Origin: a bacterium
Lineage (GTDB): Bacteria; Bacteroidota; Bacteroidia; CAILMK01; JACPUW01
Assembly: GCA_016124515.1 (NCBI GenBank)
Contig: WGNN01000037.1
Coordinates: forward strand, 13,171 to 77,170
Reading direction: 5' to 3'
Length of the DNA: 64,000 nt
Below the pieces are notes generated by a model. That model saw nothing but the letters and a program-made list of their open reading frames with translations. It searched no databases and was not told where the DNA came from. A program made the translations under genes and the position numbers. Below, one piece after another: positions 39,917 through 53,400 of the stretch (positions are counted from its first letter, which is position 1; each line of letters starts with the position of its first letter).

Positions 39917-42163
39917 TTAATTGTCATTTTGTTCCAACACTTCCACTTGGGAAAATTCGGAAGGTGGCAATCCAACCATCCACCTCAAGGTTGGCAATAA
40001 TTTTTGGGCGCGTTCGTGGTTCAGGTTTTCTTCACTTAGCGTTTGCTTCAATCGCTTGGTACCGTGTTTGGCTTTTTCTGCAATTTTTTGTTTTTCGCTT
40101 GCGCTAAAGCTTGCAAAAGTTCTTCGCAGAAGCGGAATGGTGTCGTTAAATCCATCATCTTCCAAGCTTGAAATCCACTCATTTATGATTTCCCAAATCT
40201 CATCGTCGAGCAACAAAACCATGGCCGCATCTTTCAAAAAGCCTTCAATCCAAGCGGCGGCATGGGCGGCCTCGGTACCTATAGAAAGCGCCCTGCTGAA
40301 CCTTTTGGCTGTTTCGTTTCCAGTAATAAATTGTTGGTCGTACAACAATTTGCAACTTGTGCCATGAAGCAGTGCGGCGGCTTTTTCGTTGTCGGCCACG
40401 GCCAATAGCGTTTGCATCCAATCTTGCAGCATAGCTGAATCATCTAAGAGCAATACGCCCTGCTGCATGTCTTTGAGCACCTGCGCCATTTCGGCGGCTT
40501 GTTCTTGGTCAATGCCTGTGCAGCTCATGGGCAATGCAGCGGTAATCCGGTTAAAAATCGTGTCAACAATTTCGCCTACCACTTCAAGGTCGGTTTGCCT
40601 TACGTTGCCATATCGCTTTATTTGAATGAGCGGTAAAATGGCTTTCATCAAAACCTTGCTATCGGTGGTGGTTGATGCCAAACTGTCCATTTTTCGCATG
40701 AGCGCTTCAATGCCTTGATGCAGATCAGCCGGAAGCGCCGTTTCGAGCAAGGTGGTGATTTCGTCAAGCTTGGCACTTTCATTGGCTTTTGAAATTAAAA
40801 AAGCATTGGCGGCCATTTCAATGGTATTGCCCCAAATGGCCTTGTCGAGCAACTGCAGGGTTTGGTCGGGGCGCCACATAAGCTCCCACTGCTCCTTAAA
40901 CGTGCCTTTGCCACCCACAAAGCTTTGTTGTGCCCATTGTATTCCCAAAACAGCCACCTGATGAATCAGTACGCTTTTTTCGCGGTGGGTTTCGTCGCGC
41001 AGGTCAAGTTTCAGCGTTTTTGGTTCTTCAGTGATTTTTATTCTGAGCTTTTTGGCCTTGAGTTCCAAATCCTTTTGAATGGGAACTTGCGGCGCATCGG
41101 CGGGAACTTCGCCGTATGTATTGCCTACTATCAAATCGCGCCAAACAATGCGCATTTGCACTTCATCGCCCATGCACATTACGGTTTGGGTGGCTTCGTT
41201 TAGCTCATGCAAACCGGGTTTGGGTTTTTGCCTTAAAGCCGCAAGAGTTTGCGCAAGCCGCACACTTTCAATTACATGTGACGAGGCAATGTCAATTTGG
41301 TGTTTTCTAAAAATGGCCGCTGCTTTGCTGAGCCAAATGCTGCCGTCATCACCGGGATTTTGCCAGCAGTTTTCATAATACCCCGGTGAATTGACACCCG
41401 CGCCATAACCGCTGTAATAACTCAAACGGTCGTTGGTCCAGGGAATCCAGGTACATTCAATTTTGGTTTTGGGCAGTTTTTTGGTGAGGTCATTGTCGTG
41501 TTTGACGGTAACTTTTTTCTTAAGCGCAGGCACGTGAAAAGCACCGCAAACCACCGCTATGCTGTGAAACATTTCCTTTTCGGCCTGTCGGATGGCCTGC
41601 CGCATAAAAGCTTCGCGGCGTTGCTCGTTCAAGCTTTCGGGCAAATCCAATGCTTCGCGCAATGAAGTAAAAGCTTCTTCAATGGCCTCGAAATGCTCGT
41701 TGCTTTGGCTGCTGAGCTCAAAATGCTGTTCCCACCATTCTTCTTCGTTATCAAAACCCGCCGCCTCAGCCAAATATTGCATAGGCGATTTGTATGTAAT
41801 TGACTCATTTTCTATGTTTTCCAACAGCTCGTTTTCCGTTAGGTTTTCTGCCAATTTATGGGCCAAAGGCATGTCGATGAAACGGATGGGAATTTGGTTT
41901 TCGAGTCCGTACAAAATTGCCTGCCACTCCGGCGAATAATTGGTGAAGGGGTAAAAAGTGGCGTTTTTGGGTTCGTTTGGGTCGTAGGCCAACAAGGCAA
42001 CAGGTGGCTTCATTTCAATGTGCTGCACCCATTGCAGCATATCTTCTGCTTCGGGCGGACCTTCAATCAGGAGCACATCGGGCTTGAGTGCATTGAGCTT
42101 GTGCACCAATTGCCGCGCCGAACCGGGGCCGTGGTGGCGTATGCCTAGTAGGTGAATGGCCAT
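39917..42163 (-). CDS. Large DUF5682-like protein (YehM-like)
   Basis: 748 aa. The N-terminal IHLLGIRHHGPGSARQL matches my memory of DUF5682/YehM starts. Its position between the MoxR-type AAA and VWA genes fits that family. Confidence 0.6.
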   Translation of the reverse strand: MAIHLLGIRHHGPGSARQLVHKLNALKPDVLLIEGPPEAEDMLQWVQHIEMKPPVALLAYDPNEPKNATFYPFTNYSPEWQAILYGLENQIPIRFIDMPLAHKLAENLTENELLENIENESITYKSPMQYLAEAAGFDNEEEWWEQHFELSSQSNEHFEAIEEAFTSLREALDLPESLNEQRREAFMRQAIRQAEKEMFHSIAVVCGAFHVPALKKKVTVKHDNDLTKKLPKTKIECTWIPWTNDRLSYYSGYGAGVNSPGYYENCWQNPGDDGSIWLSKAAAIFRKHQIDIASSHVIESVRLAQTLAALRQKPKPGLHELNEATQTVMCMGDEVQMRIVWRDLIVGNTYGEVPADAPQVPIQKDLELKAKKLRIKITEEPKTLKLDLRDETHREKSVLIHQVAVLGIQWAQQSFVGGKGTFKEQWELMWRPDQTLQLLDKAIWGNTIEMAANAFLISKANESAKLDEITTLLETALPADLHQGIEALMRKMDSLASTTTDSKVLMKAILPLIQIKRYGNVRQTDLEVVGEIVDTIFNRITAALPMSCTGIDQEQAAEMAQVLKDMQQGVLLLDDSAMLQDWMQTLLAVADNEKAAALLHGTSCKLLYDQQFITGNETAKRFSRALSIGTEAAHAAAWIEGFLKDAAMVLLLDDEIWEIINEWISSLEDDGFNDTIPLLRRTFASFSASEKQKIAEKAKHGTKRLKQTLSEENLNHERAQKLLPTLRWMVGLPPSEFSQVEVLEQNDN

Positions 42164-42225
42164 TTTTGTAGCGTTTGCGTGGTTTTATTTGGTTTTAATC
42201 GTTTCATCTTTTGGTCTTTCTATTA

Positions 42226-42266
42226 TTTTGAGTGCATGGGTAACTCGGCTGGAGCCGAGCTACAAG
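42226..42266. repeat. 41-bp repeat copy 1 (REP-like, contains palindrome CTCGGCTGGAGCCGAG)
   Basis: TTTTGAGTGCATGGGTAACTCGGCTGGAGCCGAGCTACAAG is identical to 42692-42732. Confidence 0.9.
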
Positions 42267-42288
42267 ATAAAAAACAACATACGCCAAC

Positions 42289-42306
42289 GCTCGGCTCCAG
42301 CCGAGT
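42289..42306. repeat. Partial inverted copy of the REP-like palindrome
   Basis: GCTCGGCTCCAGCCGAGT contains the reverse complement of the 16-nt palindrome core. Confidence 0.7.
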
Positions 42307-42337
42307 GTAACATGTACTCCGAGTCCACAACATATTT

Positions 42338-42484
42338 CTATTCATTCTCGCCATAAACTCTTCCAGTTATTTTTTTAAGAGGATTTTCAAAATGTGCACT
42401 GCTGTAAATCCAATGATCTGGTTCAGAAACCAGCCTTGCTTTAACTGGGTTTTGCAGACTCTTTTTTGCCCCAATAGGGAACTT
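42338..42484 (-). pseudogene. C-terminal remnant of an IS200/IS605-like Y1 (RAYT-type) transposase
   Basis: The minus-strand frame reads KFPIGAKKSLQNPVKARLVSEPDHWIYSSAHFENPLKKITGRVYGENE*. The QNPVKAxLV...W.YSS signature is the conserved tail of Y1 transposases. The frame is closed by a stop immediately upstream, so only about 48 codons remain. Confidence 0.6.
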
Positions 42485-42499
42485 TCATTTATACGCCAC

Positions 42500-42703
42500 T
42501 TATAAGCCATTTACGCCATTTATTAATTCATAAAATGCCCCTTTTCTTTTTCCTTTCATAATTAGAATTTCTTTTTCAACCAGTAATTCTAGGTCTCTTA
42601 CTGATGTTCTCGCTGATGTTTGATTTAAATTTTGGTAATCACTATTCGTTATTTTTCCATTCTCTTTTACAAAAAGTACGGCCTTCACTTGTTTTGAGTG
42701 CAT
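42500..42703 (-). pseudogene. Orphan winged-HTH fragment (C-terminal type found in Fic / AlbA-type regulators)
   Basis: VLFVKENGKITNSDYQNLNQTSARTSVRDLELLVEKEILIMKGKRKGAFYELI. The longer track ORF (to 42799) reads through repeat copy 2 and overlaps the AAA gene end. It could alternatively be a 67-aa stand-alone regulator. Confidence 0.4.
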
Positions 42704-42732
42704 GGGTAACTCGGCTGGAGCCGAGCTACAAG
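42692..42732. repeat. 41-bp repeat copy 2 (REP-like)
   Basis: Identical to 42226-42266, in direct orientation, 27 nt downstream of the AAA gene stop. Confidence 0.9.
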
Positions 42733-42759
42733 GTAAAAACCAACAGTTGCCATCACTTA

Positions 42760-43842
42760 TCAAATTATATCTCTGCAAGATCGGTAAATATCTTTCCAAC
42801 CTTCGCGTTGTTTGAGCACGGTTTCCATGTATTCCTGAAAAACCACTTTGTCTTGCACAGGATCTTTAACTACAGCTCCCAAAACACCGCTCGCCAAATC
42901 ATCTGCTTTTATGCTGCCATCGCCAAAATGGTGGCTTAGGGCCAGGCCGCTGTTCATCACCGAAATGGCTTCTGCCGTGCTCAATGTGCCGCTCGGTGAT
43001 TTCAATTTGGTTTTTCCATCTTCTGAAACGCCATTGCGCAACTCCCTGAAAATGGTCACTATGCGTTTTATCTCCTCTAAAATGGGTTTTTCAATGGGCA
43101 TGTCAATGGCTTTGCTGAAGCTGCTAACCCGTTGACGCACAATTTCCACCTCTTCGTCCATAGTGGCGGGAACCGGTAGAATTACCGTATTGAACCTTCT
43201 TTTTAAGGCACTCGAAAGTTCGTTTACGCCTTTGTCGCGGTTGTTGGCGGTGGCTATCACGTTGAAACCACGGGTGGCTTGTATTTGGGTGTTGAGCTCC
43301 GGTATCGGCATCATTTTTTCCGACAAAATGGTGATGAGCGTATCTTGCACATCAGCGCCTATTCGGGTCAGTTCTTCTACACGCACGGTTTTTCCGGCTT
43401 TCATTCCTTTTATCATGGGGGTTTCAACCACGGCTTCGGGCACCGGACCTTTGGCCAAAAGCAAGGCGTAGTTCCAACCGTATCTTATGGCTTCTTCGCT
43501 TGTGCCGGCGGTTCCTTGAATTATCAGGTTTGAGTTGCCCGATATGGCCGCTGCCAAATGCTCAGAGACCCATGATTTTGCAGTTCCGGGCAAACCGTAA
43601 AGCAGCAAGGCCCTGTCGGTGGTGAGTGTGGCTACGGCAATTTCCATTAGCCTTTTGTTGCCAATGTATTTGGGTGAAATATCCACGCCGTTTTTGAGTT
43701 TGCCACCCATTAAATAAGTAACCACAGCCTGCGGTGACAATTGCCAATTTTGCGGTTTTGAATGTGTATCCGTTGCCTTCAGCGCATCAAGTTCGTGTGC
43801 AAATTGCTCTTCGGCTGATTGTCTTAGTATGTTATGTGCCAT
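42760..43842 (-). CDS. MoxR-type AAA+ ATPase (AAA_5; YehL-like)
   Basis: 360 aa. Walker A LYGLPGTAKS, a Walker B region, and a MoxR-like SSALKRRF segment. Confidence 0.8.
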   Translation of the reverse strand: MAHNILRQSAEEQFAHELDALKATDTHSKPQNWQLSPQAVVTYLMGGKLKNGVDISPKYIGNKRLMEIAVATLTTDRALLLYGLPGTAKSWVSEHLAAAISGNSNLIIQGTAGTSEEAIRYGWNYALLLAKGPVPEAVVETPMIKGMKAGKTVRVEELTRIGADVQDTLITILSEKMMPIPELNTQIQATRGFNVIATANNRDKGVNELSSALKRRFNTVILPVPATMDEEVEIVRQRVSSFSKAIDMPIEKPILEEIKRIVTIFRELRNGVSEDGKTKLKSPSGTLSTAEAISVMNSGLALSHHFGDGSIKADDLASGVLGAVVKDPVQDKVVFQEYMETVLKQREGWKDIYRSCRDII

Positions 43843-43855
43843 TCTTTATTATTTT

Positions 43856-45355
43856 TCAGTTGATGGTAAGTCGCTCCATTTCTTCAAGAATATAGAGCAT
43901 TTCATTTAGTTGGTTTTTCAAAAATCTTAGCTCAAAATGGCCGTCGCCAATTCGGTGGGCCAGTTCCTGCAAATTGTTTTTATGTGAGAGTGGAAGTAAA
44001 TAAGCCAATTCGGTGTACTGCGCGGCGGTAATTAAATAGGGTGCACGTTTTAAAGTCCTTATTACAAAAACAGTTAAATCATAATCAATTGGTTTGTTGC
44101 GGTTGATGATATACAATAAGGCTTGCGCAGGTGGACCCATATTTGTGCCCTGTGGTTCCTTTTGAAGGTTTTGTGTTAAAATTTCATTTTGTTTGGCTTC
44201 GGGTAAAACATCAAGTAAACGGTTATCTGCCATTCCCGACTTTTCAATAAGCAAGCCCGCCAATTGGGTGTCTTTAAAATTAATGGCCCATTGCACCAAA
44301 AAAGGTTTCAACAAGTCGTAATCATTATGATTTACAAAGAGTTTAAAAATTTCGTCCTTTGGTAAAATATACTTGTGCGCTATGGCATCAGGAGGTACCA
44401 CTGTGAGGCATTGCGCCATCCAAAACAAATGGTCTGAAAACCCTTTTTGAGAACTTATTTGCTCCAATCCAAAACTAAAAAGCACATCGGCAGGTCGTGT
44501 TTCCTTCACTTCAAGCAACCGTTTTTTACCCATGAGCAACCGGCGTTCTTCTTTTATATGAATGGCGTTGAAAAAATGCTCTGCAAATGCTTTGTTCACA
44601 ACGCTACCGGGCAGTTCTTGTAGAAGGGCAGCCGCCTTGTTTTGCACTTTTGTGCTTCGGTCTTGCAGCAATTCCATTAGAAATTCTTCGTCATATTTTC
44701 CGCTGTTTTGCTCCAAAACTTCTATAAAAGCCAAGCGGTTGTTGGCGTTTTCTTGCGGCAGGGTTTGTTTGAGCAAGGCAATGACTTCTTGTGGATGGTG
44801 TTTCCGCAAATCCGCTACATACAACAATCGGCTGTTGAAATCCATTAGTTCCCAATCAAGTGCTTTGGTTTTTGCGCCAAAAAGTGTTTGCCAATTTTTG
44901 TTGAATTGTGCCAACCAAGCGGCTCTGAGCCCCAGGCAATCTAAAAATGCTTGATTTGCCAACTCTTTGTGTTTTAATGCCAAATTGAGCAAAGCCGGCA
45001 CCAGCCGTGGCGAAACTATCATGTTTTTCTGTAGCAATTGCCGTTGGGCAAAGGCTATAAGCCGGGCATTCCCCTTATTTATAACCCTTTCAAAAGTGTT
45101 TTGAAAACGAAGCGGGGCATAGGTTTTTACTTCGGGCGGGGCTTCTTTGGCGGGGCCTGTATTTTTTGCCAATTGCACCGCCGCCTCAAAATAGTTGAGC
45201 ACCAAAAAACTTGATTTTAAAAAAGCATCTTCGTTGTCGCTTTGCCCCTTTTTTATGCTTTCAATTTCATTGCTTAAAATACTTCCCATGGTATTTGGGC
45301 TGTATTTGGCGGTGCCTAAAATGGCGGTTTTTATCAACTCCTTTTCTACACTCAT
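43856..45355 (-). CDS. Helical-repeat protein, DUF5691-like by position
   Basis: About 499 aa from ATG 45355, which forms an ATGA overlap with the SWIM gene stop. All-helical. From memory, DUF5691 occupies this position in SWIM-AAA-DUF5682-VWA clusters. Confidence 0.5.
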   Translation of the reverse strand: MSVEKELIKTAILGTAKYSPNTMGSILSNEIESIKKGQSDNEDAFLKSSFLVLNYFEAAVQLAKNTGPAKEAPPEVKTYAPLRFQNTFERVINKGNARLIAFAQRQLLQKNMIVSPRLVPALLNLALKHKELANQAFLDCLGLRAAWLAQFNKNWQTLFGAKTKALDWELMDFNSRLLYVADLRKHHPQEVIALLKQTLPQENANNRLAFIEVLEQNSGKYDEEFLMELLQDRSTKVQNKAAALLQELPGSVVNKAFAEHFFNAIHIKEERRLLMGKKRLLEVKETRPADVLFSFGLEQISSQKGFSDHLFWMAQCLTVVPPDAIAHKYILPKDEIFKLFVNHNDYDLLKPFLVQWAINFKDTQLAGLLIEKSGMADNRLLDVLPEAKQNEILTQNLQKEPQGTNMGPPAQALLYIINRNKPIDYDLTVFVIRTLKRAPYLITAAQYTELAYLLPLSHKNNLQELAHRIGDGHFELRFLKNQLNEMLYILEEMERLTIN

Positions 45356-46668
45356 AAGCAATGGATTTGTTGGTTTACCACTATGGCTGCCACCGAAAAA
45401 TGCATGGATTCAATCAATAGGAAAGCATCAAAACTTTTGCCGCCGCTTAACGCCAATAATTGCCACAACTGATCCTGTTTGTTTTCAATTAGTATTGTGT
45501 TGGCGTATTGGTCAACCAACTGCATTTTTTCTTCATGAAATATTATAGATACGTTTCCAATAAATGCACCTGTGTTTTCAACCAGCGGATTTTGGGCCTT
45601 CACCTTGGTTATTTTTTCGAATAAATCATCGAGCGAGCGTAAATCAGGCTTCAGCTTAAGGGGTTCGTTACTTGTGCTTTTTGACTTGACCAAAGCCCGC
45701 TGATTGCCCACACCTGGGTAAAAACACAAGGCCGCATCAATTAACTGCCGCGATGTAAGCAACTCGTGGGGTTTTTGAGCACCGGCATAAAAATCAAGCA
45801 CCAAGGCCATTTTTTTGGTGCTAGTGCCATAGAGCCAATTTTTCACAGTGGTGAGTTTTTCGTTGGTTTCCGCACTGTGCGAAAAAACCAGCCACTGATC
45901 GTGCACCGGCGTTTGAGCCAATACCTCCTCTTTGCTCACCGACCAGCCTACAAGGGCATTTATTTCAGCTTGCCAATCGCTATTTAGCTGCGCGCGTTGC
46001 TTGTAAAGCTCAGTAATGGCATACATGCGCGACAGTTTTTTGAGCAGTTGCTTTTCCCAGCCCTCCGCATAGAAATTGATGTTTTCAATACTTCTGAGTT
46101 CGGCAGCCAAACCACCGGCTTGGGCATCAACCATACGCGAGGCAATGTTGGCAGTGAACGAATAAAGGTTTTGCGGAACGTTCATAATGCCGTTTCGCAC
46201 CACATCCTTGAGCCACAATTGCAGTTCTTCAATGCCACTGTCCACCTTCAATTCGCGCTTTTCAATGCGCTTGCTTTGGGCCTTTTCATCAAGGGGTTTT
46301 TCGACTTTTTGTGCCGCTTTTTCCTGCCGGGCTTCTCTTTTGTTGAGCCACTCGTTTACAAAGTCGGGCAAGTCGTTTTGCGTAGTAAATGCATTTTGAT
46401 TTTGCGCATAAAGCAATAAAAGACCAAGACCATGTTTGCAGGGAAATTTTCGACTGGGGCAGGAACATTTAAAGGCCATGTTTTGCGCGTCGATGGCCGT
46501 TTTGTATGGGTTTTTGCCGCTGCCCTGGCAGTAGCCCCACAAGGCCTGTTGGTTGTAAGCCAATGTGAGCCAATGACTTGGAGATGCCAGTTTTTGGGCG
46601 GCTGTAAGCGAACCGCTATCAGGAGCAAGTTGGCGTATTTGGTCGGGACTTATTTTCAAATGAACCAC
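45352..46668 (-). CDS. SWIM zinc-finger protein (YehQ-like)
   Basis: 438 aa. CSCPSRKFPCKHGLGLLLLY is the CxCx(n)CxH SWIM motif. Confidence 0.8.
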   Translation of the reverse strand: MVHLKISPDQIRQLAPDSGSLTAAQKLASPSHWLTLAYNQQALWGYCQGSGKNPYKTAIDAQNMAFKCSCPSRKFPCKHGLGLLLLYAQNQNAFTTQNDLPDFVNEWLNKREARQEKAAQKVEKPLDEKAQSKRIEKRELKVDSGIEELQLWLKDVVRNGIMNVPQNLYSFTANIASRMVDAQAGGLAAELRSIENINFYAEGWEKQLLKKLSRMYAITELYKQRAQLNSDWQAEINALVGWSVSKEEVLAQTPVHDQWLVFSHSAETNEKLTTVKNWLYGTSTKKMALVLDFYAGAQKPHELLTSRQLIDAALCFYPGVGNQRALVKSKSTSNEPLKLKPDLRSLDDLFEKITKVKAQNPLVENTGAFIGNVSIIFHEEKMQLVDQYANTILIENKQDQLWQLLALSGGKSFDAFLLIESMHFSVAAIVVNQQIHCL

Positions 46669-46781: not shown

Positions 46782-47240
46782 TTATGCTGGTTGGAGTAAA
46801 AGGCTTTGTAGCGTGAGAAAAAAAGGATTATTCATCAGCAACAAATCATTGCATAAGAGTGCAAGCTTGTCTTTTTGATGATGGATGACCTTGTGAACGT
46901 ATTTTGGGTCATTCTCAGAGAAATAATCGCCCAATTGCTTGCTCGATTTTTTTACCGCCTTTTGTAACCAAAATTCGAGATTTGGGCAAAGTGCAATGAC
47001 TTTGTTTTGGTTTGTGTCAATTAAGAGGCGCAGATCATGAAGTTCACTCTCAAGCCTCATGCCTTGTAAGTGAGTAGGTTGCACTTGAAATGGATCTTCG
47101 TCAATCATCGCAATTTGATGTGACAGCTTTTTGATTTTGGCCATTACCCTCCCTTTATCGTTATGGTGGCTGATAGCCTTTCTTTCAATGCCAAAACACT
47201 TTAATATATGTTCGTCTGCAAAACATTCAACATGGTACAT
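46782..47240 (-). CDS. Small Toprim-like protein (DUF4276/DUF4435/RloB-like class), partner of the upstream ATPase
   Basis: From ATG 47240: MYHVECFADEHILKCFGI...GRVMAKI...IAMIDEDP shows the Toprim pattern of a conserved Glu near the N-terminus followed by DxD. It starts 1 nt after the ATPase stop. Confidence 0.5.
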   Translation of the reverse strand: MYHVECFADEHILKCFGIERKAISHHNDKGRVMAKIKKLSHQIAMIDEDPFQVQPTHLQGMRLESELHDLRLLIDTNQNKVIALCPNLEFWLQKAVKKSSKQLGDYFSENDPKYVHKVIHHQKDKLALLCNDLLLMNNPFFLTLQSLLLQPA

Positions 47241-47241
47241 T

Positions 47242-48219
47242 TTATCCCAATTTTTCAAATTCATAAAAAATATCGGAGCCCATTTCCAATAAATCTCCGT
47301 AGGTATCTGAATTCAAGACTGTTGTTTTTGTCTCAAAATCAATCATTTCAGTTTTAATGATGTTCAAATCATCCTTTTTTGTTTTTTCAATTAAACTCAT
47401 CAACAAATAGGGGTTATGAGTAGAAATGAAATATTGGTTTCTATTGTCCATACCTATCATTTCTGCAACCATTTTTGTATAGAAAGGAAAAGTATTCGCC
47501 TCAGGTTCATCAAAAATCAAAATAGAATTTTCATTACTTTCTATAGCCAATAGCATAAAGGCGTATCGCCGAAGGGTTTCTGAAGTGGTATGGTAGGGAT
47601 AGGAAAGCAATTCATCATTAAAATCCTTCACAATTTCAATTTCCTGAGTTACCGGTTTTAACACCAATCGCAAGCCCTTGGCATTATAAATATCAGCAAC
47701 AATTTTCTTGAATTTAGTATTTCCCAAAAGCAAAGTGGGTAGGTTTTGACCAAAAGGCGGGCTTAAAAAAGGCCGGTGGTCATTATTAAAACCATTTAGA
47801 TTTTTGTATTGGTAGAATTTGAAATTCGTATCAAATAAGTGCGACGCCTCACCGATAGTTATATTGCTGTTGAAATAAGCTGTAGATAGCTCATCACTAC
47901 CTCTAAAATACTGTATTTCAAACGAAGTCATAGAATTTGGCTTCCGCTGAATTTTAAAAGACAATACATCATTCATGACCGAAATGGGTTCATTGAAATT
48001 AGAATCAAATGCCAAATTTCCAATGTCCTTTCCCCTCACAATTTCTGAAAGATATTCAGGTGCATTGATTGATAAAAAGTACAATGACTCCAAAATATTG
48101 GATTTACCCGAATTGGGCTCGCCAATAAAAACATTGACCCTTTTGGTAGGAAACTCCACCTTTTTTACAGACTTAAAATTCTTGATCTCAAGTCGCGACA
48201 TGAAATGTTTGTCTTCCAT
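47242..48219 (-). CDS. ABC/SMC-type AAA ATPase (AAA_15/AAA_21-like)
   Basis: RLEIKNFKSVKKVEF...FIGEPNSGKSNILESL (Walker A), SETLRR (signature-like), ILIFDEPEANTFP (Walker B), FISTHNPYLL (H-loop). 325 aa. Confidence 0.75.
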   Translation of the reverse strand: MEDKHFMSRLEIKNFKSVKKVEFPTKRVNVFIGEPNSGKSNILESLYFLSINAPEYLSEIVRGKDIGNLAFDSNFNEPISVMNDVLSFKIQRKPNSMTSFEIQYFRGSDELSTAYFNSNITIGEASHLFDTNFKFYQYKNLNGFNNDHRPFLSPPFGQNLPTLLLGNTKFKKIVADIYNAKGLRLVLKPVTQEIEIVKDFNDELLSYPYHTTSETLRRYAFMLLAIESNENSILIFDEPEANTFPFYTKMVAEMIGMDNRNQYFISTHNPYLLMSLIEKTKKDDLNIIKTEMIDFETKTTVLNSDTYGDLLEMGSDIFYEFEKLG

Positions 48220-48287
48220 AAAATCAAATATATTGAAACTATATAGAACCCGCTTATTAAATCAAAAGCAAGGCTCTGGTTCTAAAC

Positions 48288-49541
48288 CTACCCTCTACAC
48301 AACTCCAAAATTGTAATCTCGGGCAATATGCCGAGCCTGCCGGGAAAGCCCAGGTAGCCAAAACCGCGGTTCACGTAAAGGTATTGATCATTTTCTTGGT
48401 ACAAGTCGGCCCATTCTTCGTACATCATACTCACCGGACTCCAGCGGTAGTTGCCGGTTTCTATACCAAACTGTGCGCCGTGTGTGTGGCCGGCCAGCAT
48501 GAGGTCTATATCGCCAAATTGGGGCAAAACTTGCGCGCGCCAGTGGCTTGGGTCGTGAGACAACAAGAGTTTTACCGCCGCATCTTCTGTACCCTGCACT
48601 GCTTTTGCCAGGTTGCCATGCTTGGGAAAACGCGCCTTGGCACTCCAGTTTTGTATGCCAATCACCGCCAGTTTATCACCGCTTTCGCTAAAAATAACGT
48701 TTTCATCCATTAAAGGCTTCCAGCCCATGTTGCGCTCTATTTGCAACAAGTCTTGCAGGTTTTTTCTTTTGGCAGCTTCGCTTTCCCAATGCACATAGTC
48801 GCCGTAGTCGTGATTTCCCAAAGTTGAAAAAACCCCCATGGGTGCTTTCAGTTTGTTGAAAACCTCTCCATAATCGCGCATTTCGGTGGCCCGGTCATTT
48901 ACCAAATCGCCGGTAAAAAATATCATATCGGGTTTTTGAGTCAGCAGCATTTCTACCCCGCCCTGCACTGCGCGTTTGTTCCAAAAACTGCCTGAGTGTA
49001 TGTCAGAAAGTTGGGCTATTCGCAACCCTTCAAACGAAGATGGCAGGTTTTTTATAGGAATTTTTCTATGCCTGACCCTATAGTCGTGTGCGCCACTCAA
49101 CACACTGTAGCTGCCCGCCACTATGGGTATAGCTGCTGCCACCATGCCGGCCTGCGCTATAAACTCCCCTCGCGATATGCCATTTTTTGTTTCGGTAACA
49201 TTATTTTCGGGTTTATCAAATAATGAAGCCACCCACTTGCCCAGTCGTACCACATCATCGATAAAAGCAAAAAGGGCTAAAAATAACTTGGGCAGAATAA
49301 CTATAATAGTAAGTGCCTGAAAAAAAGCCCTTAGCCAGCGGGGCGTGTACATAAAAGCTCCTGTGGTAAACATGAGCAAACCACTTATCAAGAGTACACT
49401 ACTGGTCCAGAAACCTATAATAACCGCTCTGCTCCAAAACTGCGAATAGGAGGCTGCGGCATGTTTGACCAACTGAAAGGCATAAATATCGAGAATGAGG
49501 TAAATTACAATTAGAACAATAACGATTGACATGCGTCGCAT
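48288..49541 (-). CDS. Membrane-anchored metallophosphoesterase (YkuE-like)
   Basis: Four to five N-terminal TM helices, then motifs RIAQLSDIHSG, FTGDLVND, GNHDYG, GHTHG. Confidence 0.8.
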   Translation of the reverse strand: MRRMSIVIVLIVIYLILDIYAFQLVKHAAASYSQFWSRAVIIGFWTSSVLLISGLLMFTTGAFMYTPRWLRAFFQALTIIVILPKLFLALFAFIDDVVRLGKWVASLFDKPENNVTETKNGISRGEFIAQAGMVAAAIPIVAGSYSVLSGAHDYRVRHRKIPIKNLPSSFEGLRIAQLSDIHSGSFWNKRAVQGGVEMLLTQKPDMIFFTGDLVNDRATEMRDYGEVFNKLKAPMGVFSTLGNHDYGDYVHWESEAAKRKNLQDLLQIERNMGWKPLMDENVIFSESGDKLAVIGIQNWSAKARFPKHGNLAKAVQGTEDAAVKLLLSHDPSHWRAQVLPQFGDIDLMLAGHTHGAQFGIETGNYRWSPVSMMYEEWADLYQENDQYLYVNRGFGYLGFPGRLGILPEITILELCRG

Positions 49542-49982
49542 AAACTATTTGAATAAAGGGCTCAAAACTTGGCCTTTTTGTTTACAAATTGAGTTAAGAA
49601 TTGCAAATGTTTGCCTCTGTTTCTTTAGCCGGATTACCAAACTAAAGTTTCATGGTTTTAAATGCATCTTATATTTAGGTCCTTAAGCGAATTCACCGCG
49701 TTTGTATTATTGCCCAATAACAACATGATAGGGAGACTAAATGGGATTTTGACTTGAATTATTATTTTCCAAAGTCAAATTCGAAGCTTACCCTCTGAAA
49801 GTTGTGCTCATTGCTCCTTTCTTGTACTTTTTGCTTGACCAAAAAGTACCAAAAAGTCAAGGCTTGTTTTCTTTTCTTAACGCTCCGAAACAACCGAAAT
49901 TCCTGAACAAAAAAAAAACTCGCCGCCACTTGTTGTGTTGCAAATCGCATTTTTAGCTTATCCAAAGCTTGAACTTTTTGTT

Positions 49983-50012
49983 GCTGTATAAAGGCTCATA
50001 CAGCTTTTTTTT
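49983..50012 (+). terminator. Orphan intrinsic-terminator-like hairpin + T8
   Basis: GCTGTAT-aaaggctc-ATACAGC is followed by TTTTTTTT. There is no plus-strand ORF upstream within the 0.9-kb spacer. Confidence 0.45.
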
Positions 50013-50454
50013 CCGGGCGGAATTTCAATTATTTCTCCGCTAAAAAGAAAAAGAGGCGTCCCAATTGTTCAAAAAGAAGCCCCCTAACTGAAGGAATAAG
50101 GGAATTCAGAGCATCTATCAATCCAGAAGCTAAACACATTTGATTTACTTATATCAGCGTCTAGTTAGACAAACTGTAGCTTCCCTGAAACTACAGTTAC
50201 CTAAAAAAACCACCAAAAGGCGGTTTCATTGGTTTATTGCGCAAAAAATGGTAACATCGTACATAGAGTCTGCATAAGAAGGTCAATTATTTGGTTGCCA
50301 TCGTATTTTTTTTGAAGTGGGTAATGTGCCGGCGCCAACTCCCCACATTCAGCACTTGGCAGCATGGTTATTGGTTGTTTCGTATCAGACACTGCGTTTT
50401 CTTGTAAGCATTATATTGATTTTAATGTCATCATTTTTAAAAAATTAACGACGA

Positions 50455-53400
50455 ATGAAGTGGGCAATATTTCTTACAACGCTCTGCTTTTTGTGGTCTT
50501 CGGCACTTTGGGCGCAACCGGCCAACGACAATTGGAAAAATGCCTTGCATATAAAATTGGGCGATAAAGGATTGACCGATGGTCTTTATATTTCAAAAAA
50601 AATCAAATTGCAGGGTGCAAGTACCGAAAGCGGCGAGAACATTAGCCAAAACATGACTTTTACCGGGCTCAATAACAAAACGGTGTGGTTTGTTTTTACC
50701 ACTAAGGCACACAAAGACATTGAAATAAGCCTGAAACAACACGACGGCAGCATGAATGTGCACCAAGCCGGAATGACCGTGTATAGCAACAGTGCCAAAG
50801 TGCCCGCCAGTACAAGCGATGCGGGTTTTCCGGCCATTACGCAGTTTGGTACCATTAAAAAAAGCTGTGTAGCAGCCGGCACTTATTATGTGCAGGTTTG
50901 TGCTGACAAAAACGCTACAGACAGTATTTGGCTCACTATAAAGTTGAGCTCGCCCAATGTAGCAGGCAACACCCCACAACAAGCAATTGATGCTTCCAAG
51001 GTGCCTTCCGATTTTTTTGATAATCCCTGCTTTTCATTATCCGGCTTGTATGAATTGGATTTATATAGCCCCCGGTTATTTAATAAATCGGCATACTTGT
51101 ATTTTTCAACACCCACAGTCATCGAAAAATCGAATTTGACATTTACGGGCAACCGCTTTACGGCCATCATATATAAAGGTACACCAAGCGACCCCGCCCA
51201 ATGGGTAAAAGCATTTGAACTGTACAACCCCGGCAACACAAAATCGCTGAATAAAACGGGAGACTGCCACCACAAAGCCTTTGAACCCGACGCCGATTAT
51301 GTCATAAAAGTGCTCTTTCACGATTCAAGCCATGTTTTTACAAGCGGACCTGAGTTTGTAGGCAGTGTTGCGGCCAAGTTGTACAACCCCGCCCTAAAAG
51401 CCACACAACTCGGCAACATAAGCGCAACAAAAACCATTACCACTATTTCGGCCAAGGATGTGGTTGACTGCAATTCCAATGGTGCAAGTTATATATGCAG
51501 TAAATTTACCCACCTCATTAGCGATACGATTTATTATAATAATGGCCAACCGGTTTTAGATACTATGAATTTCGGATCGTGGCTATCCTTTACCCTCACC
51601 CAAGCCGCACAATTCACTTATCAATACAGTGGTGTGCCTTACAAAAACGGCCTTGTACCACGCCTGCAGGCTTTTCTTTTCACCGGTGATTATACATCGG
51701 GGCTGTGCCAATCGTCTCCCTTACCCATTTCATCGGGCTATACAGATTGCCTTCCCGCGGGAACCTATACCATCTTCAACGGATTGTATAAAAATAATAA
51801 AACAGCCGACGACATTCCGGTTTTAACAGGCCGGTCGCTTAATTTTACCATTAAAGTAGTGGCCAACCCCGGCGTTGCAGGAAATCCGGCTTTGTACTAC
51901 AACCCTTTGTTGCCCTGCAAGTTGCTCAATTTCTGCTACGCCAAACCCTACGACAAAAGAACCACCCCAACCGATTGGCTCAACGGGCCACTGGATACCC
52001 ATGCTATTGATGGAGATACTTTCATTGGGCATTTTAGTTTTACTACCATTTCGCTGGCGCAAAAAGCCTTTGTGAAAATATGGCCAAATGGTGGTTATGA
52101 CGAAAGTTACCACCTTTTCAGAGGCGATTGCAGCCAAGGACTTGCCACACTAAAAGATAATGTAAACAGACTAATAGGCCATAAAGAAACGGAACCCACC
52201 TACAATTTGGTAATGCTTGACAAAGGAACCTACACCCTGATGAGCGACAGACAACCCGGCACAGCCTGTGTAAAACCCGAACACCACAATGCGCAATACA
52301 CGGTATTGGCCACCACGCAGCACGACAAAAGGCCTCCTGAACCTTGTGATGCAGCGTATTACCATGCCAAATCGCCCGGCTTGCTAAACTTTGGCAAGGT
52401 GCTGCATTGGAACAGCAAGCCTACAAATGGTTTCAGCAGGTTTGCACTGCCTATAACCTGCACCGATAGTGTAAATAATAAGGGCGTGTATAATATGTAC
52501 AACGCCCAAAAATATATTCATGGTAAAACCAACAAGGTTTTGTATTATGAATTTGAACTTGGTGAGCTCTCCACCGTACAATTTAGAATAAACAATCCCA
52601 TTCAAATAATAAAAGGCAGTTTGCAAGCGGATTCAACCTTGTGCAAAAACCCCGAAAATGTATTTATTGAATACACATCAGGTAAAAATGAGGTATGTAA
52701 AATGCCGCCGGGTAAGTACACCGTGGTAGTAGTACTTGTGTCAGATGGCATTGGAGGCTATTTGGATGTGGTTCGGTTTGTACAAGCAAGCAATTATTAT
52801 ATGAAAAGGAGCTTGGACATGGGTATTTTGAGTGCAACAAATAAAAATTTGAGCGACTCGGGTTTTATGAATTGCGTGGTTAACGCCCACGCAGACCCGC
52901 CTGAGTTGTGGTACACTTTCAGGGTGGTGGGTTATGGTTCTTTTCAAGTAAGTCAAGACAATGCTAAAAAAAGCAATACCTCCTTCCCAAATTTCATGAC
53001 CGTGCCCGAGGCAGGCGGTATGGAATTCGCTGATTTGAAAAAAACCAACTTGCTTGATTCTACTTGGGCACCGGGCACCACTTACCCCGAACGTTCGTAC
53101 ATTTCTTATCAGGTTTATCTGCATGCAAGCAACGATACCATGCGCTATTTTTTGAAAGTTAACCCCATCCAAAACTATGAAAGCCAACCCTTTGCCATCA
53201 ACATAAGCTTTACACCCGAAACCGAAGGAACCACCAATGGCGACTATTGCAGCAATGCCATTACCGACACATTGAATGGCACAGGAAAAATAACCCTAAA
53301 AGTAAATGCATCGCGACATACAGCCGGCGAAGGAGTGTATGAAGACAGCCGTGCATGGATGTGCAATCGCAATGTTTTTGATACACGGAGCTATAAAACC

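What the first reader, a model, noticed from the sequence alone, without database searches (positions are those of the whole stretch)
46782..48219. Compact ABC-type ATPase + Toprim-like two-gene module, strongly AT-rich, adjacent to the SWIM-AAA-VWA operon
The 325-aa ATPase has Walker A GEPNSGKSN, a signature-like SETLRR, Walker B ILIFDEPE and an H-loop STHNP. This is typical of the AAA_15/AAA_21 ATPases of OLD, PARIS (AriA), Septu (PtuA) and RloA-type defence modules.

One nucleotide after its stop begins a protein of about 150 aa. Its HVECFADEHIL...AMIDEDP pattern fits the Toprim Glu...DxD arrangement found in AriB/DUF4435, DUF4276 and RloB partners.

Both proteins are markedly smaller than the described AriA/AriB or OLD proteins. 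Hand counts on two 60-nt lines (47501, 47801) give about 27-33% G+C, against about 48% in the neighbouring operon, which suggests recent acquisition.
Basis: partly seen in the sequence, partly recalled or inferred. Interest (0 to 1): 0.7.

Follow-up and report, generated by a model that had tools for sequence, protein, structure and literature searches.

The report
Compact ABC ATPase plus mini-Toprim-like gene pair
Two tightly coupled genes, a small ABC-type ATPase and a 152-residue protein with a nuclease-like cluster of acidic residues, form a widespread uncatalogued cassette that resembles known anti-phage ATPase-nuclease systems but has never been tested.

Summary
Both ORFs and every quoted motif are real. 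The ATPase (47242-48219, minus strand, 325 aa) passes Pfam AAA_15/AAA_21. Its AlphaFold model matches SMC, Rad50, GajA, PtuA and OLD heads. One nucleotide after its stop begins a 152-aa ORF (46782-47240).

The pairing is strict. All 76 related genome loci with room downstream carry the small gene or a remnant of it directly downstream, mostly overlapping by 1 or 4 nt.

The small protein belongs to a family of at least 836 clusters that no Pfam, PADLOC, NCBIfam or PHROG model recognises. Its invariant residues (E5, D47, E89, plus D9 and D49) repeat the E-x3-D...DxD...E pattern of the AriB Toprim site.

Toprim homology is only weakly supported:
- MAD4 hits in 19 of 123 members.
- hhalign E of 0.005-0.02 against a genuine OLD-like TOPRIM/RloB partner, with all motifs in register.
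- A pLDDT-97 model gave no Foldseek match in PDB.

Neighbourhoods vary and are barely enriched for defence genes. AT-richness is family-wide, so it does not show recent acquisition here.

Verdict: an uncatalogued compact variant of the ABC ATPase plus Toprim class (PARIS, MAD3-MAD4, HEC-01, AbiL). It is a member of none of them. Function is inferred.

The parts
47242..48219 (-). Gene for a compact ABC-type (AAA_15/AAA_21) ATPase of 325 aa. The true start is probably M7 at 48201, giving 319 aa.
   Evidence: ORF. Pfam AAA_15 2.5e-15 (57.4 bits, cutoff 32.1) and AAA_21 8.6e-13 (49.4 bits, cutoff 27). AF2 model pLDDT 93.8. Foldseek PDB hits: SMC head 4i99 3e-12, Rad50, GajA, PtuA, OLD 6p74. Family N-termini begin 3-4 residues before LxIKNF.
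48097..48123 (-). Walker A / P-loop GEPNSGKSN (residues 33-41).
   Evidence: G33 E34 N36 G38 K39 N41 are invariant in 68 homologues.
47566..47583 (-). ABC signature-like motif SETLRR (residues 213-218).
   Evidence: S213 T215 R218 are invariant.
47500..47523 (-). Walker B ILIFDEPE (residues 233-240), with the D-loop EANTFP following.
   Evidence: D237 is at least 90% conserved. E238, P239, F244 and P245 are invariant.
47410..47424 (-). H-loop STHNP (residues 266-270).
   Evidence: T267 and H268 are invariant.
47238..47244 (-). Gene junction: TAA stop of the ATPase, one base, then the ATG of the small gene. This arrangement suggests translational coupling.
   Evidence: In 75 related loci the gap is -38 to +5 nt, mostly -4 or -1.
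46782..47240 (-). Gene for a 152-aa protein: an N-terminal alpha/beta domain carrying an invariant acidic cluster, followed by a C-terminal three-helix region. It is the putative mini-Toprim-like nuclease effector.
   Evidence: The family has at least 836 clusters at 50% identity. AF2 model pLDDT 97.2, pTM 0.90. No Pfam, PADLOC, NCBIfam or PHROG hit.
47211..47231 (-). Motif I VECFADE (residues 4-10). E5 lies directly after predicted strand 1 and D9 is four residues later.
   Evidence: E5 is invariant, C6 and D9 at least 90% conserved. Secondary structure. Aligns to VEGDTE of the OLD-like TOPRIM/RloB partner.
47091..47105 (-). Motif II IDEDP (residues 46-50). The DxD lies at the end of predicted strand 3.
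   Evidence: D47 is invariant, E48, D49 and P50 at least 90% conserved. Aligns to FDTDR.
46968..46985 (-). Motif III PNLEFW (residues 86-91). E89 lies at the start of the helix after the last strand.
   Evidence: E89 is invariant, P86, L88 and W91 at least 90% conserved. Aligns to NFEDEL of the RloB-type partner and to SIENY of an AriB.
48220..48287 (-). 68-nt upstream intergenic region with promoter-like elements.
   Evidence: A sigma-70-like TTGATT-16-TATAGT lies at 48265-48238, but such hits are no more frequent than in shuffled sequence. Reading the reverse complement of the sequence shows TATATTTG just 5' of 48219. That this matches the Bacteroidota -7 consensus TAnnTTTG is from my own knowledge and was not tested.

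Best explanation
This is a self-contained two-gene cassette of the "ABC ATPase plus Toprim-type nuclease" class.

**Shown by computation.**
- Gene 1 encodes a minimal ABC/SMC-head-like ATPase with all nucleotide-binding motifs intact.
- Gene 2 starts one base after gene 1's stop. It encodes a 17.7-kDa protein whose family-invariant residues form an E-x3-D ... DxD ... E acidic cluster at the C-terminal ends of predicted strands of an alpha/beta domain.
- The two genes are inherited as a unit across Bacteroidota, Verrucomicrobiota and several archaeal lineages, in unrelated neighbourhoods.

**Inferred.**
- The ATPase probably forms ATP-sandwich dimers through Walker A and the SETLRR signature.
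- It probably binds the small protein in a stoichiometric complex.
- The acidic cluster probably binds two divalent metals and cleaves nucleic acid.
- The ATPase probably acts as sensor and gate, holding the nuclease inactive until a trigger changes its nucleotide state. The trigger could be a phage protein, foreign DNA ends or nucleotide depletion. The comparison systems are AriA-AriB (PARIS) and GajA (Gabija).
- The nuclease would then attack tRNA or DNA, aborting infection or destroying the invader.
For: **ATPase.**
- Pfam AAA_15 and AAA_21 above their cutoffs.
- Motifs invariant in 68 homologues.
- AF2 model pLDDT 93.8. Foldseek E of 1e-10 to 1e-12 against SMC and Rad50 heads, GajA, retron Eco8 effector, PtuA and OLD.

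**Pairing.**
- In 80 species genomes the small gene sits directly downstream on the same strand in 75, with a gap of -38 to +5 nt.
- Three more loci end at a contig edge. One has a split ATPase. The single apparent exception, L079, holds a 50-residue remnant of the small gene (E 6e-10).
- Pairwise identities of the two proteins correlate: r = 0.81, Mantel p = 0.001.
- A distant pair (38% and 34% identity) lies in a different context.

**Small protein.**
- E5, D47 and E89 are invariant. C6, D9, H25, E48, D49, P50, P86, L88 and W91 are at least 90% conserved in 123 diverse members.
- The predicted order b1-a1-b2-a2-b3 puts E5 after b1 and the DxD after b3.
- This repeats the AriB site E26, D30, D88, E90, E122 (PMC11464382).
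- NCBIfam MAD4 is hit by 19 of 123 members, while the next family is hit by 3. PADLOC mad4 is hit by 8, AbiLii by 3, AriB by 1 and GajA by 1.
- The MAD4 alignments are collinear over about 100 residues, for example residues 34-140 against profile positions 63-171 of 206.
- hhalign against a 172-aa AAA_21-associated partner from E. coli P2 hotspots gives E = 0.0047, and E = 0.021 against that partner's family. All three acidic motifs align in register. Four of 300 column-shuffled controls reach the same score.
- That partner family passes Pfam OLD-like_TOPRIM in 13 of 13 members and RloB in 7 of 13.
- The ATPase's best NCBIfam hit is MAD3. [quoted passage not shown]

**Accessory, mobile character.**
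- 536 of 185,579 species genomes carry a relative.
- Identity to archaeal copies (41-44%) is about the same as to most Bacteroidota copies (44-46%).
- Neighbourhoods are heterogeneous.
- The pair is AT-richer than its flanks in 69 of 71 loci.
Against: - Foldseek of the pLDDT-97 model found nothing better than E = 0.25 in PDB and 0.57 in BFVD. No Toprim appeared among the 50 listed hits, although OLD and GajA structures that contain Toprim domains are in that library.
- No Toprim-type Pfam family appeared among the families listed for the 123 members.
- All MAD4 and hhalign scores are far below family thresholds (12-16 bits against a cutoff of 160; hhalign probability 2-7%).
- The canonical Toprim "EG" is "EC" here.
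- The two AriB sequences gave only a local motif-III match or nothing.
- Only about 8-9 of 126 immediate neighbours match defence models, and no true pair was found in 2.9 million viral contigs. Guilt-by-association for defence is therefore weak.
- The architecturally closest tested candidate, HEC-01, showed no defence in its assay.
- No experiment exists for this family.
Confidence: 0.6

Rival explanations
1. The pair is an ATPase-regulated effector module, but the small protein is not a Toprim. It would be a separate, so far undescribed metal-dependent hydrolase or nuclease fold, or a very derived Rossmann-like or PIN-like one, that merely converges on an acidic cluster.
For: - High-confidence model (pLDDT 97.2) with no significant structural neighbour in PDB or BFVD.
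- No Toprim-type Pfam hit among the families listed for 123 members.
- hhalign probabilities are only 2-7%.
- "EC" replaces "EG", and there is a beta-hairpin insert between motifs II and III.
- Weak Csa3/CARF hits in 3 members.
Against: - The E-after-b1 and DxD-after-b3 placement is specifically Toprim-like (PMC12065111).
- The recurrent weak hits fall on Toprim-type families (MAD4, AbiLii, AriB, GajA) rather than on PIN or other nucleases.
- The in-register alignment to an OLD-like TOPRIM family has an empirical p of about 0.013.
- A genuine small Toprim family (A7) is equally invisible to a PDB sequence search, so negative searches are weak evidence.
Confidence: 0.2
2. The pair has a cellular housekeeping or repair role rather than a conflict role. 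Examples would be an ABC ATPase-nuclease couple acting on DNA ends (a miniature Rad50-Mre11 or RecF-like function) or an RNase M5-like RNA-processing enzyme with an ATPase cofactor.
For: - The best structural matches include SMC, Rad50 and RecN heads, and the best PDB sequence-profile hit is RecF.
- Most neighbours are ordinary metabolic or surface genes.
- There is conserved local synteny in Thermococci and in a Verrucomicrobiota clade.
Against: - Present in only 536 of 185,579 species, patchily across phyla and both domains.
- Context differs even among the closest relatives.
- Consistently AT-richer than the host flanks.
- Decay events occur: a split ATPase in L047 and a truncated small gene in L079.
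- These are features of accessory, horizontally moving genes.
Confidence: 0.08
3. The pair is a selfish addiction or toxin-antitoxin-like cassette. The small nuclease would be a toxin and the ATPase its neutraliser, kept mainly by post-segregational killing rather than by protecting the host.
For: - A tight two-gene operon with overlapping stop and start codons.
- AT-rich and mobile-looking distribution.
- Pfam describes AAA_21 as a "putative AbiEii toxin, Type IV TA system" domain.
- AbiEi and SoFic occur among the neighbours.
Against: - For PARIS, deleting either gene was non-toxic, which excluded a toxin-antitoxin model for that relative (PMC9122126).
- No family member was found on any of 72,556 plasmids, apart from one truncated ATPase remnant.
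- None was found as a pair on viral contigs.
Confidence: 0.1

Closest known systems
MAD3-MAD4 sub-module of the methylation-associated defence system (MADS)
   Same: - The ATPase's best NCBIfam hit is MAD3 (2.8e-10).
- MAD4, a DUF4276-type Toprim according to PMC12065111, is the only family repeatedly hit by the small-protein family: 19 of 123 in NCBIfam and 8 of 123 in PADLOC, collinear over about 100 residues.
- It has the same ABC ATPase plus small Toprim-type partner architecture (PMC11464382).
   Different: - Scores are far below the equivalog cutoffs: 39.9 against 420 bits, and 16 or less against 160 bits.
- The MAD3 model is 427 positions long and the MAD4 model 206, against 325 and 152 aa here.
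- No methyltransferase or other MADS gene lies next to the pair in the window. Only 2 of 126 immediate neighbours in the related loci matched mad2.
PARIS (AriA-AriB)
   Same: - A two-gene AAA_15/21 ABC ATPase plus Toprim nuclease system whose partners co-evolve.
- The AriB acidic set E26, D30, D88, E90, E122 has the same order and similar spacing as E5, D9, D47, D49, E89.
- The best PADLOC hit of the ATPase is AriA (8e-18).
   Different: - AriB is a 35-kDa DUF4435 protein. No DUF4435 hit was obtained, and hhalign to two AriB sequences gave E = 0.03 (motif III only) and 0.15.
- AriA is 53-55 kDa with coiled-coil inserts IS1 and IS2, which are absent from the 325-aa ATPase.
- PARIS is often carried by phages and satellites. 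This pair was not found on viral contigs.
AAA_15/AAA_21 plus small RloB/OLD-like TOPRIM pair of E. coli P2 prophage hotspots (Rousset et al. 2022, supplementary tables)
   Same: - The partner is similarly small (172 aa).
- The motif layout is the same (VEGDTE ... FDTDR ... NFEDEL) and aligns in register with VECFADE ... IDEDP ... NLEFWL.
- The upstream ATPase is of the ABC type.
   Different: - Similarity is only marginal (hhalign E 0.005-0.02).
- That family passes Pfam OLD-like_TOPRIM, while the window family does not.
- The hosts are Enterobacteria and the context is a prophage hotspot.
HEC-01 (Hma-embedded candidate; ABC ATPase plus TOPRIM protein)
   Same: - A two-gene ABC ATPase plus separate TOPRIM protein system.
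- The ATPase hits HEC-01A models (5.7e-17).
- HEC ATPases also extend the N-terminal hairpin into a beta-sheet insert, and the window ATPase has a beta-rich insert at residues 79-136.
   Different: - No HEC-01B model matched the window protein, and none appeared among the twelve PADLOC families hit by the 123 family members.
- HEC-01 was defined by being embedded in Hma systems. This pair stands alone.
- HEC-01 itself gave no defence phenotype in its assay.
OLD-family nucleases, Gabija GajA and the retron Eco8 effector
   Same: - An ABC ATPase head of the same structural class (Foldseek hits 8x5i, 6p74, 9lpa).
- A Toprim-type acidic site coupled to ATPase control.
   Different: - In those proteins the ATPase and Toprim are fused in one polypeptide of about 560-740 residues (chain lengths).
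- Here they are two separate, much smaller genes.
- There is no GajB-type helicase or reverse transcriptase partner.
AbiL (AbiLi-AbiLii)
   Same: - A two-gene ATPase plus Toprim-type abortive-infection system.
- Weak hits to AbiLi (1.9e-12) and to AbiLii (3 of 123 members).
   Different: - The window small protein itself does not hit AbiLii.
- The scores are generic P-loop level.

Membership tests
ABC-type ATPases of the AAA_15/AAA_21 (OLD/RecF-like) group | Pfam AAA_15 or AAA_21 match above the gathering score. | tested here: met
   AAA_15 57.4 bits (cutoff 32.1). AAA_21 49.4 bits (cutoff 27) over residues 28-273.
ABC-type ATPases of the AAA_15/AAA_21 (OLD/RecF-like) group | Walker A, ABC signature, Walker B with catalytic Glu, D-loop and H-loop all present and conserved. 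| tested here: met
   Present at residues 33-41, 213-218, 233-240, 240-245 and 266-270. Invariant or at least 90% conserved in 68 homologues.
ABC-type ATPases of the AAA_15/AAA_21 (OLD/RecF-like) group | ABC/SMC-head fold. | tested here: met
   AF2 pLDDT 93.8. Foldseek E of 3e-12 to 1e-10 and TM about 0.5 to SMC, Rad50, GajA, PtuA and OLD heads.
Toprim superfamily (small protein) | Conserved Glu at the end of strand 1. | tested here: met
   E5 is invariant in 123 members. Predicted strand 1 spans residues 2-4.
Toprim superfamily (small protein) | Conserved DxD at the end of strand 3. | tested here: met
   D47 is invariant and D49 is at least 90% conserved. Predicted strand 3 spans residues 43-47.
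Toprim superfamily (small protein) | Three-layer alpha/beta fold with sheet order 2-1-3-4, superposable on solved Toprim domains. | tested here: inconclusive
   The secondary-structure order b-a-b-a-b is compatible. Foldseek gave no hit below E = 0.25 in PDB or 0.57 in BFVD, and no Toprim among the 50 listed.
Toprim superfamily (small protein) | Sequence-model match to a Toprim-type family (Pfam Toprim, OLD-like_TOPRIM, DUF4276, DUF4435, RloB). | tested here: not met
   The window protein has no hit. No such family is among those listed for the 123 members at E up to 1.
Toprim superfamily (small protein) | Profile-profile homology to a genuine Toprim family. | tested here: inconclusive
   hhalign E = 0.0047 and 0.021, probability 2-7%, 94-100 columns, three motifs in register. 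Shuffle control 4 of 300. The target family is OLD-like_TOPRIM in 13 of 13 members.
PARIS (AriA/AriB) | Effector is a DUF4435 (PF14491) protein. The published detection rule requires AAA_15/21 plus DUF4435 (PMC9122126). | tested here: not met
   No DUF4435 hit. PADLOC AriB was hit by 1 of 123 members at E = 0.022.
PARIS (AriA/AriB) | AriA-type ATPase with coiled-coil inserts, about 53-55 kDa. | tested here: not met
   37.6 kDa. The model shows a beta-rich insert and no coiled coil. The PADLOC AriA hit covers residues 7-142 only as its best stretch.
MADS (MAD3/MAD4) | NCBIfam equivalog scores above the cutoffs (MAD3 420 bits, MAD4 160 bits). | tested here: not met
   MAD3 39.9 bits. MAD4 16.3 bits or less.
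MADS (MAD3/MAD4) | Embedded in a multi-gene locus with a methyltransferase and other mad genes. | tested here: not met
   The window neighbours are a metallophosphoesterase and a SWIM/DUF5691/AAA_5/DUF5682 operon. mad2-like neighbours occur in only 2 of 126.
HEC-01 | Both HEC-01A and HEC-01B PADLOC models match. | tested here: not met
   HEC-01A 5.7e-17 as a partial match. No HEC-01B hit for the window protein, and none among the twelve PADLOC families hit by the 123 members.
OLD-family nucleases (classes 1-3) | ATPase and Toprim fused in one polypeptide. | tested here: not met
   Two separate ORFs with a stop codon between them, as in 75 related loci.
Anti-phage defence system (generic) | Enrichment in defence islands or on mobile elements. 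| tested here: inconclusive
   About 8-9 of 126 immediate neighbours match defence models (JetA, PtuA, AbiEi, SoFic, mad2/3). Most neighbours are housekeeping genes. No pair was found on viral contigs or plasmids. The pair is AT-richer than its flanks in 69 of 71 loci.
Anti-phage defence system (generic) | Protection phenotype. | not testable with these tools
   This needs cloning and phage challenge.

The most novel reading that the evidence does not exclude
The pair would be the founding example of an uncatalogued, minimal ABC-ATPase plus 150-residue nuclease immune or conflict system. It is spread by horizontal transfer through Bacteroidota, Verrucomicrobiota and several archaeal lineages. 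Its effector is so derived that current Toprim models and PDB structure searches do not recognise it. That makes it either the smallest stand-alone Toprim nuclease partner known or a separate fold.
Probability: 0.4. Interest if true: 0.6.

Novelty: new variant of a known kind. Interest (0 to 1): 0.45.

Why it matters
ABC ATPase plus Toprim systems (OLD, Gabija, PARIS, retron effectors) are a major theme in prokaryotic immunity. Catalogues such as Pfam, PADLOC and NCBIfam do not recognise this family's effector, so the pair is invisible to defence-system annotation in the 536 of 185,579 species genomes (0.3%) that carry it, mostly Bacteroidota but also Verrucomicrobiota and several archaeal lineages.

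With a 37-kDa ATPase that lacks the AriA coiled-coil inserts and a 17.7-kDa effector, it would be a compact model for asking how an ABC head gates a Toprim-type nuclease. If the effector fold proves to be non-Toprim, it would add a new nuclease type to ATPase-gated systems.

Tried and rejected
**Searches that returned nothing useful.**
- Word-indexed homologue search with the small protein found only itself and one relative. The exhaustive profile search was needed to reveal the family.
- Sequence-profile search of PDB with the small-protein family found nothing relevant. The same search with a genuine small Toprim family (A7) also found nothing, so this negative is uninformative.
- Foldseek against PDB and BFVD for the small protein gave no significant hit.
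- Plasmid tblastn found one truncated ATPase remnant in a Parabacteroides plasmid and no small protein.
- The viral-contig scan found only distant AAA_15 ATPases and one truncated relative, with no small-gene partner.
- A genome scan with the small-protein alignment failed because it has no conserved 7-10-residue stretch. The ATPase alignment was used instead.
- A metagenome scan with the adjacent SWIM protein, meant to find an "empty site", returned no relatives.

**Ideas tested and dropped.**
- A second ATPase plus 256-aa pair beside the module in L064 was tested as a possible MAD4-like seed. It is unrelated (hhalign E = 0.24).
- A conserved third gene was rejected. Neighbour clusters exist only inside small clades: a Macro-domain gene in Thermococci, and two genes in a Verrucomicrobiota group.
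- A functional link to the SWIM-DUF5691-AAA_5-DUF5682 operon was rejected, because none of the 80 related loci shares those neighbours.
- No flanking direct or inverted repeats, tRNA or terminator delimit an inserted element.

**Not available.** The MADS primary paper was not in the library.
Full report
**1. The observation**

The ORF list shows a 325-aa ORF at 47242-48219 (-) and a 160-aa ORF at 46782-47264 (-). The sequence at the junction reads TAA (47244-47242), one base, then ATG (47240). It matches both the NCBI protein P0001 and the family N-terminus, whose consensus is MIFVEC.

All quoted motifs are present at the positions computed. They are conserved across homologues, so they are not chance strings.

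G+C of the module is 35.5% (ATPase 33.9%, small gene 38.8%). The two flanking genes are 45.9-47.1% and the window as a whole is 42.5%. Only 2.2% of equal-length windows in the 64 kb are as low. The two hand-counted lines are 26.7% and 35.0%.

A minor correction concerns the ATPase start. Family N-termini begin 3-4 residues before "LxIKNF", so the real start is probably M7 (48201), giving 319 aa like the closest relative P0004.

**2. The ATPase**

Pfam AAA_15 and AAA_21 both pass their gathering scores. PADLOC, NCBIfam and PHROG hits (AriA, ATPase-Toprim_I-B, HEC-01A, HEC-02A, AbiLi, Old, GajA, NsnB, mad3, MAD3, retron Eco8 effector, RecF) rest largely on the N-terminal P-loop or C-terminal Walker B/H-loop segments and are far below family cutoffs. 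They place the protein in a class, not in a family.

An alignment of 68 relatives shows an invariant Walker A (G33 E34 N36 G38 K39), signature (S213 T215 R218), Walker B/D-loop (D237 E238 P239 ... F244 P245) and H-loop (T267 H268).

The AlphaFold model has pLDDT 93.8 and pTM 0.92. It matches SMC heads (4i99, 3e-12), Rad50, GajA (8x5i), the retron Eco8 effector, PtuA and Thermus OLD (6p74), with TM about 0.5. It is a minimal ABC head with a beta-rich insert (strands between residues 79 and 136) and no coiled coil.

**3. The pair is a unit**

The small protein's only word-index relative (P0002, 34% identity) lies directly after a 323-aa ATPase that is 38% identical to the window's, in a different context flanked by a cupin and a Fic protein. 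ATPase relatives of 68%, 64% and 49% identity each carry a gene of about 150 aa that overlaps or abuts their stop codon.

A scan of one genome per species found relatives in 536 of 185,579 genomes. I analysed the 80 best loci with HMMs built from the two families:
- 75 have the small gene directly downstream on the same strand, with a gap of -38 to +5 nt, mostly -4 or -1.
- 3 end within 142-373 nt of the ATPase gene.
- 1 has a split ATPase (L047).
- 1 (L079) retains a 50-residue N-terminal remnant of the small gene (E 6e-10).

Every locus with room therefore has the partner or its remains. Pairwise identities of the two proteins correlate (r = 0.81, Mantel p = 0.001), so partners are not swapped.

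**4. The small protein**

An exhaustive profile search found 836 cluster representatives at E up to 1e-3 and 501 at E up to 1e-10. Nearly all of the 150 listed are 140-165 aa long.

No library recognises the family:
- The window protein has no Pfam, PADLOC, NCBIfam or PHROG hit.
- No Toprim-type Pfam family appears among those listed for 123 diverse members.

In those 123 sequences, which are 23-45% identical to the window protein, E5, D47 and E89 are invariant. C6, D9, H25, E48, D49, P50, P86, L88 and W91 are at least 90% conserved.

AlphaFold with this alignment gives pLDDT 97.2 and pTM 0.90. The predicted order is b1(2-4)-a1(7-15)-b2(23-25)-a2(29-37)-b3(43-47), a beta-hairpin (62-74), b(80-84), a(88-98), then three C-terminal helices. 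This places E5 just after b1, D47-x-D49 at the end of b3, and E89 at the start of the helix after the last strand.

That is the Toprim layout as described in PMC12065111: a conserved Glu before the first helix and a DxD after b3. It repeats the five acidic residues of AriB, which are E26, D30, D88, E90 and E122 (PMC11464382). The corresponding residues here are E5, D9, D47, D49 and E89.

**5. How strong is the Toprim assignment?**

Evidence in favour:
- NCBIfam MAD4 is hit by 19 of 123 members (best E 0.002), while the next family is hit by 3.
- PADLOC mad4 is hit by 8, AbiLii by 3, AriB by 1 and GajA by 1.
- On subfamily consensus sequences the MAD4 match is collinear over about 100 residues: 34-140 against 63-171 of 206, and 40-133 against 68-162.
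- From the supplement of Rousset et al. 2022 I took a 172-aa partner of an AAA_15/21 ATPase from E. coli P2 hotspots. Its family (A7) passes Pfam OLD-like_TOPRIM in 13 of 13 members and RloB in 7 of 13.
- hhalign of the window family against that sequence gives E = 0.0047, and E = 0.021 against its family. The alignment covers 94-100 columns and pairs VEC with VEG, IDED with FDTD, and LEFW with FEDE.
- Only 4 of 300 column-shuffled controls reach that score.

Evidence against:
- hhalign probabilities are 2-7%.
- Two AriB sequences gave only a motif-III match (E 0.03) or nothing.
- Foldseek with the pLDDT-97 model found nothing better than E = 0.25 in PDB and 0.57 in BFVD. The top hits were generic Rossmann-like domains.

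A PDB sequence search is uninformative here, because it also fails for the genuine Toprim family A7.

I therefore rate "Toprim-like metal-dependent nuclease" as likely but unproven. I keep a separate-fold alternative at about 0.2.

**6. Context and distribution**

In the window the pair lies between a metallophosphoesterase gene (48288-49541) and a SWIM / DUF5691 / AAA_5 / DUF5682 operon (39917-46668), all on the minus strand. None of the related loci shares these neighbours.

The 126 immediate neighbours of 63 related loci are heterogeneous: Radical_SAM 8, Por_Secre_tail 5, Macro 4. Conserved neighbours exist only inside small clades. Only about 8-9 of the 126 match defence models, including JetA, PtuA, AbiEi, SoFic and mad2/mad3. 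No member pair was found on plasmids or among 2.9 million viral contigs.

Hosts are mostly Bacteroidota. They also include Verrucomicrobiota, Thermoanaerobaculia, Thermococci, Methanosarcinales, Bathyarchaeia and Archaeoglobaceae. Identity to the window ATPase is 41-44% for archaeal copies and 44-46% for most Bacteroidota copies, which indicates horizontal transfer.

The pair is AT-richer than its flanks in 69 of 71 loci, by 6.7 points on average (p = 4e-13). The G+C dip in the window is therefore a family trait, not evidence for a recent event here. No repeats, tRNA or terminators delimit an insertion.

**7. Mechanism**

Shown by computation:
- An intact ABC ATPase.
- A gene arrangement that suggests translational coupling.
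- Strict co-inheritance with a small protein that has an invariant acidic cluster.
- An accessory, mobile distribution.

Inferred by analogy with PARIS, Gabija, OLD and Septu:
- The ATPase dimerises around ATP.
- It binds the small protein and gates its metal-dependent nuclease activity in response to an infection-associated cue.
- Release or activation leads to cleavage of tRNA or DNA, and so to abortive infection or destruction of the invader.

Which substrate, which trigger, and whether ATP binding or hydrolysis activates the nuclease are all unknown.

**8. Comparison and novelty**

The architecture is that of the known ABC ATPase plus Toprim class: PARIS, MAD3-MAD4, AbiL, HEC-01, and the AAA_21 plus RloB pair. 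Every family-level membership test failed:
- DUF4435 is absent.
- MAD3 and MAD4 scores are about 10% of their cutoffs.
- No HEC-01B or AbiLii hit was obtained for the window protein.
- The pair is not fused as in OLD.

The pair is distinctly smaller than PARIS (37.6 and 17.7 kDa against 53-55 and 35 kDa). Its effector family is absent from Pfam, PADLOC 2.0, NCBIfam 20 and PHROGs. I found no paper describing it.

I classify it as a new variant of a known kind. Interest is moderate (0.45). It is a solid, well-delimited and widespread candidate, but the concept is established, defence association is weak, and the nearest tested analogue (HEC-01) gave no phenotype.

Noticed in passing
window 39917-46668 (-): There is an operon of SWIM zinc-finger (45352-46668), DUF5691 (43856-45361), AAA_5/MoxR-like ATPase (42760-43842) and DUF5682 (39917-42163) proteins. 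All are families of unknown function. It lies next to the module, but no relative of the module shares it.
   Followed up: partly
window 42164-42799: A low-G+C stretch (36-38%) lies between the DUF5682 and AAA_5 genes. It holds a 99-aa ORF (42500-42799, -) that overlaps the 3' end of the AAA_5 gene by 40 nt and has no Pfam hit. From memory only, its C-terminal half looks like a winged-helix DNA-binding tail. It may be a small insertion inside the operon.
   Followed up: no
window 48201-48219: The annotated ATPase start (M1, 48219) is probably 6 codons too long. Family N-termini point to M7 at 48201.
   Followed up: partly
L064:7839-9880: In a Bacteroidetes MAG the pair is followed by a second, unrelated AAA_15/AAA_21 ATPase (424 aa) and an overlapping 256-aa protein with no Pfam hit and no similarity to the small-protein family. 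This is a tandem of two ATPase-based two-gene modules, possibly a small defence cluster.
   Followed up: partly
L079:6972-7121 and L047:5998-6981: These are decayed copies. L079 keeps only the first 50 codons of the small gene behind an intact ATPase gene. L047 has the ATPase split into two ORFs and no small gene.
   Followed up: yes
L063, L065, L069, L076 (Thermococci): A gene for a 186-189-aa protein, probably a Macro-domain protein, follows the pair within a few bases in four Thermococci contigs. A radical-SAM-sized gene lies upstream in three of them. This could be vertical synteny or a lineage-specific third component.
   Followed up: partly
L057, L062, L071, L074 and L042 (mostly Verrucomicrobiota): A clade shows conserved same-strand neighbours: a gene of about 465-513 aa immediately upstream (L042, L071, L074) and one of about 483-505 aa immediately downstream (L057, L062, L071, L074). 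Their families were not identified individually.
   Followed up: no
L009:5049-5525 (Parabacteroides distasonis plasmid NZ_OY725749.1): A 158-aa ORF annotated "AAA family ATPase" is only the C-terminal half of an ATPase of this family (36.7% identity to residues 150-322). No partner gene accompanies it.
   Followed up: yes
window 50455-55311 (+): A 1618-aa ORF lies here, preceded by about 900 nt of low-G+C sequence (49542-50454) that has no ORF of 60 aa or more except short ones. From reading the sequence, its C-terminus looks like a type IX secretion sorting domain, which would fit a Bacteroidota host. This was not tested.
   Followed up: no
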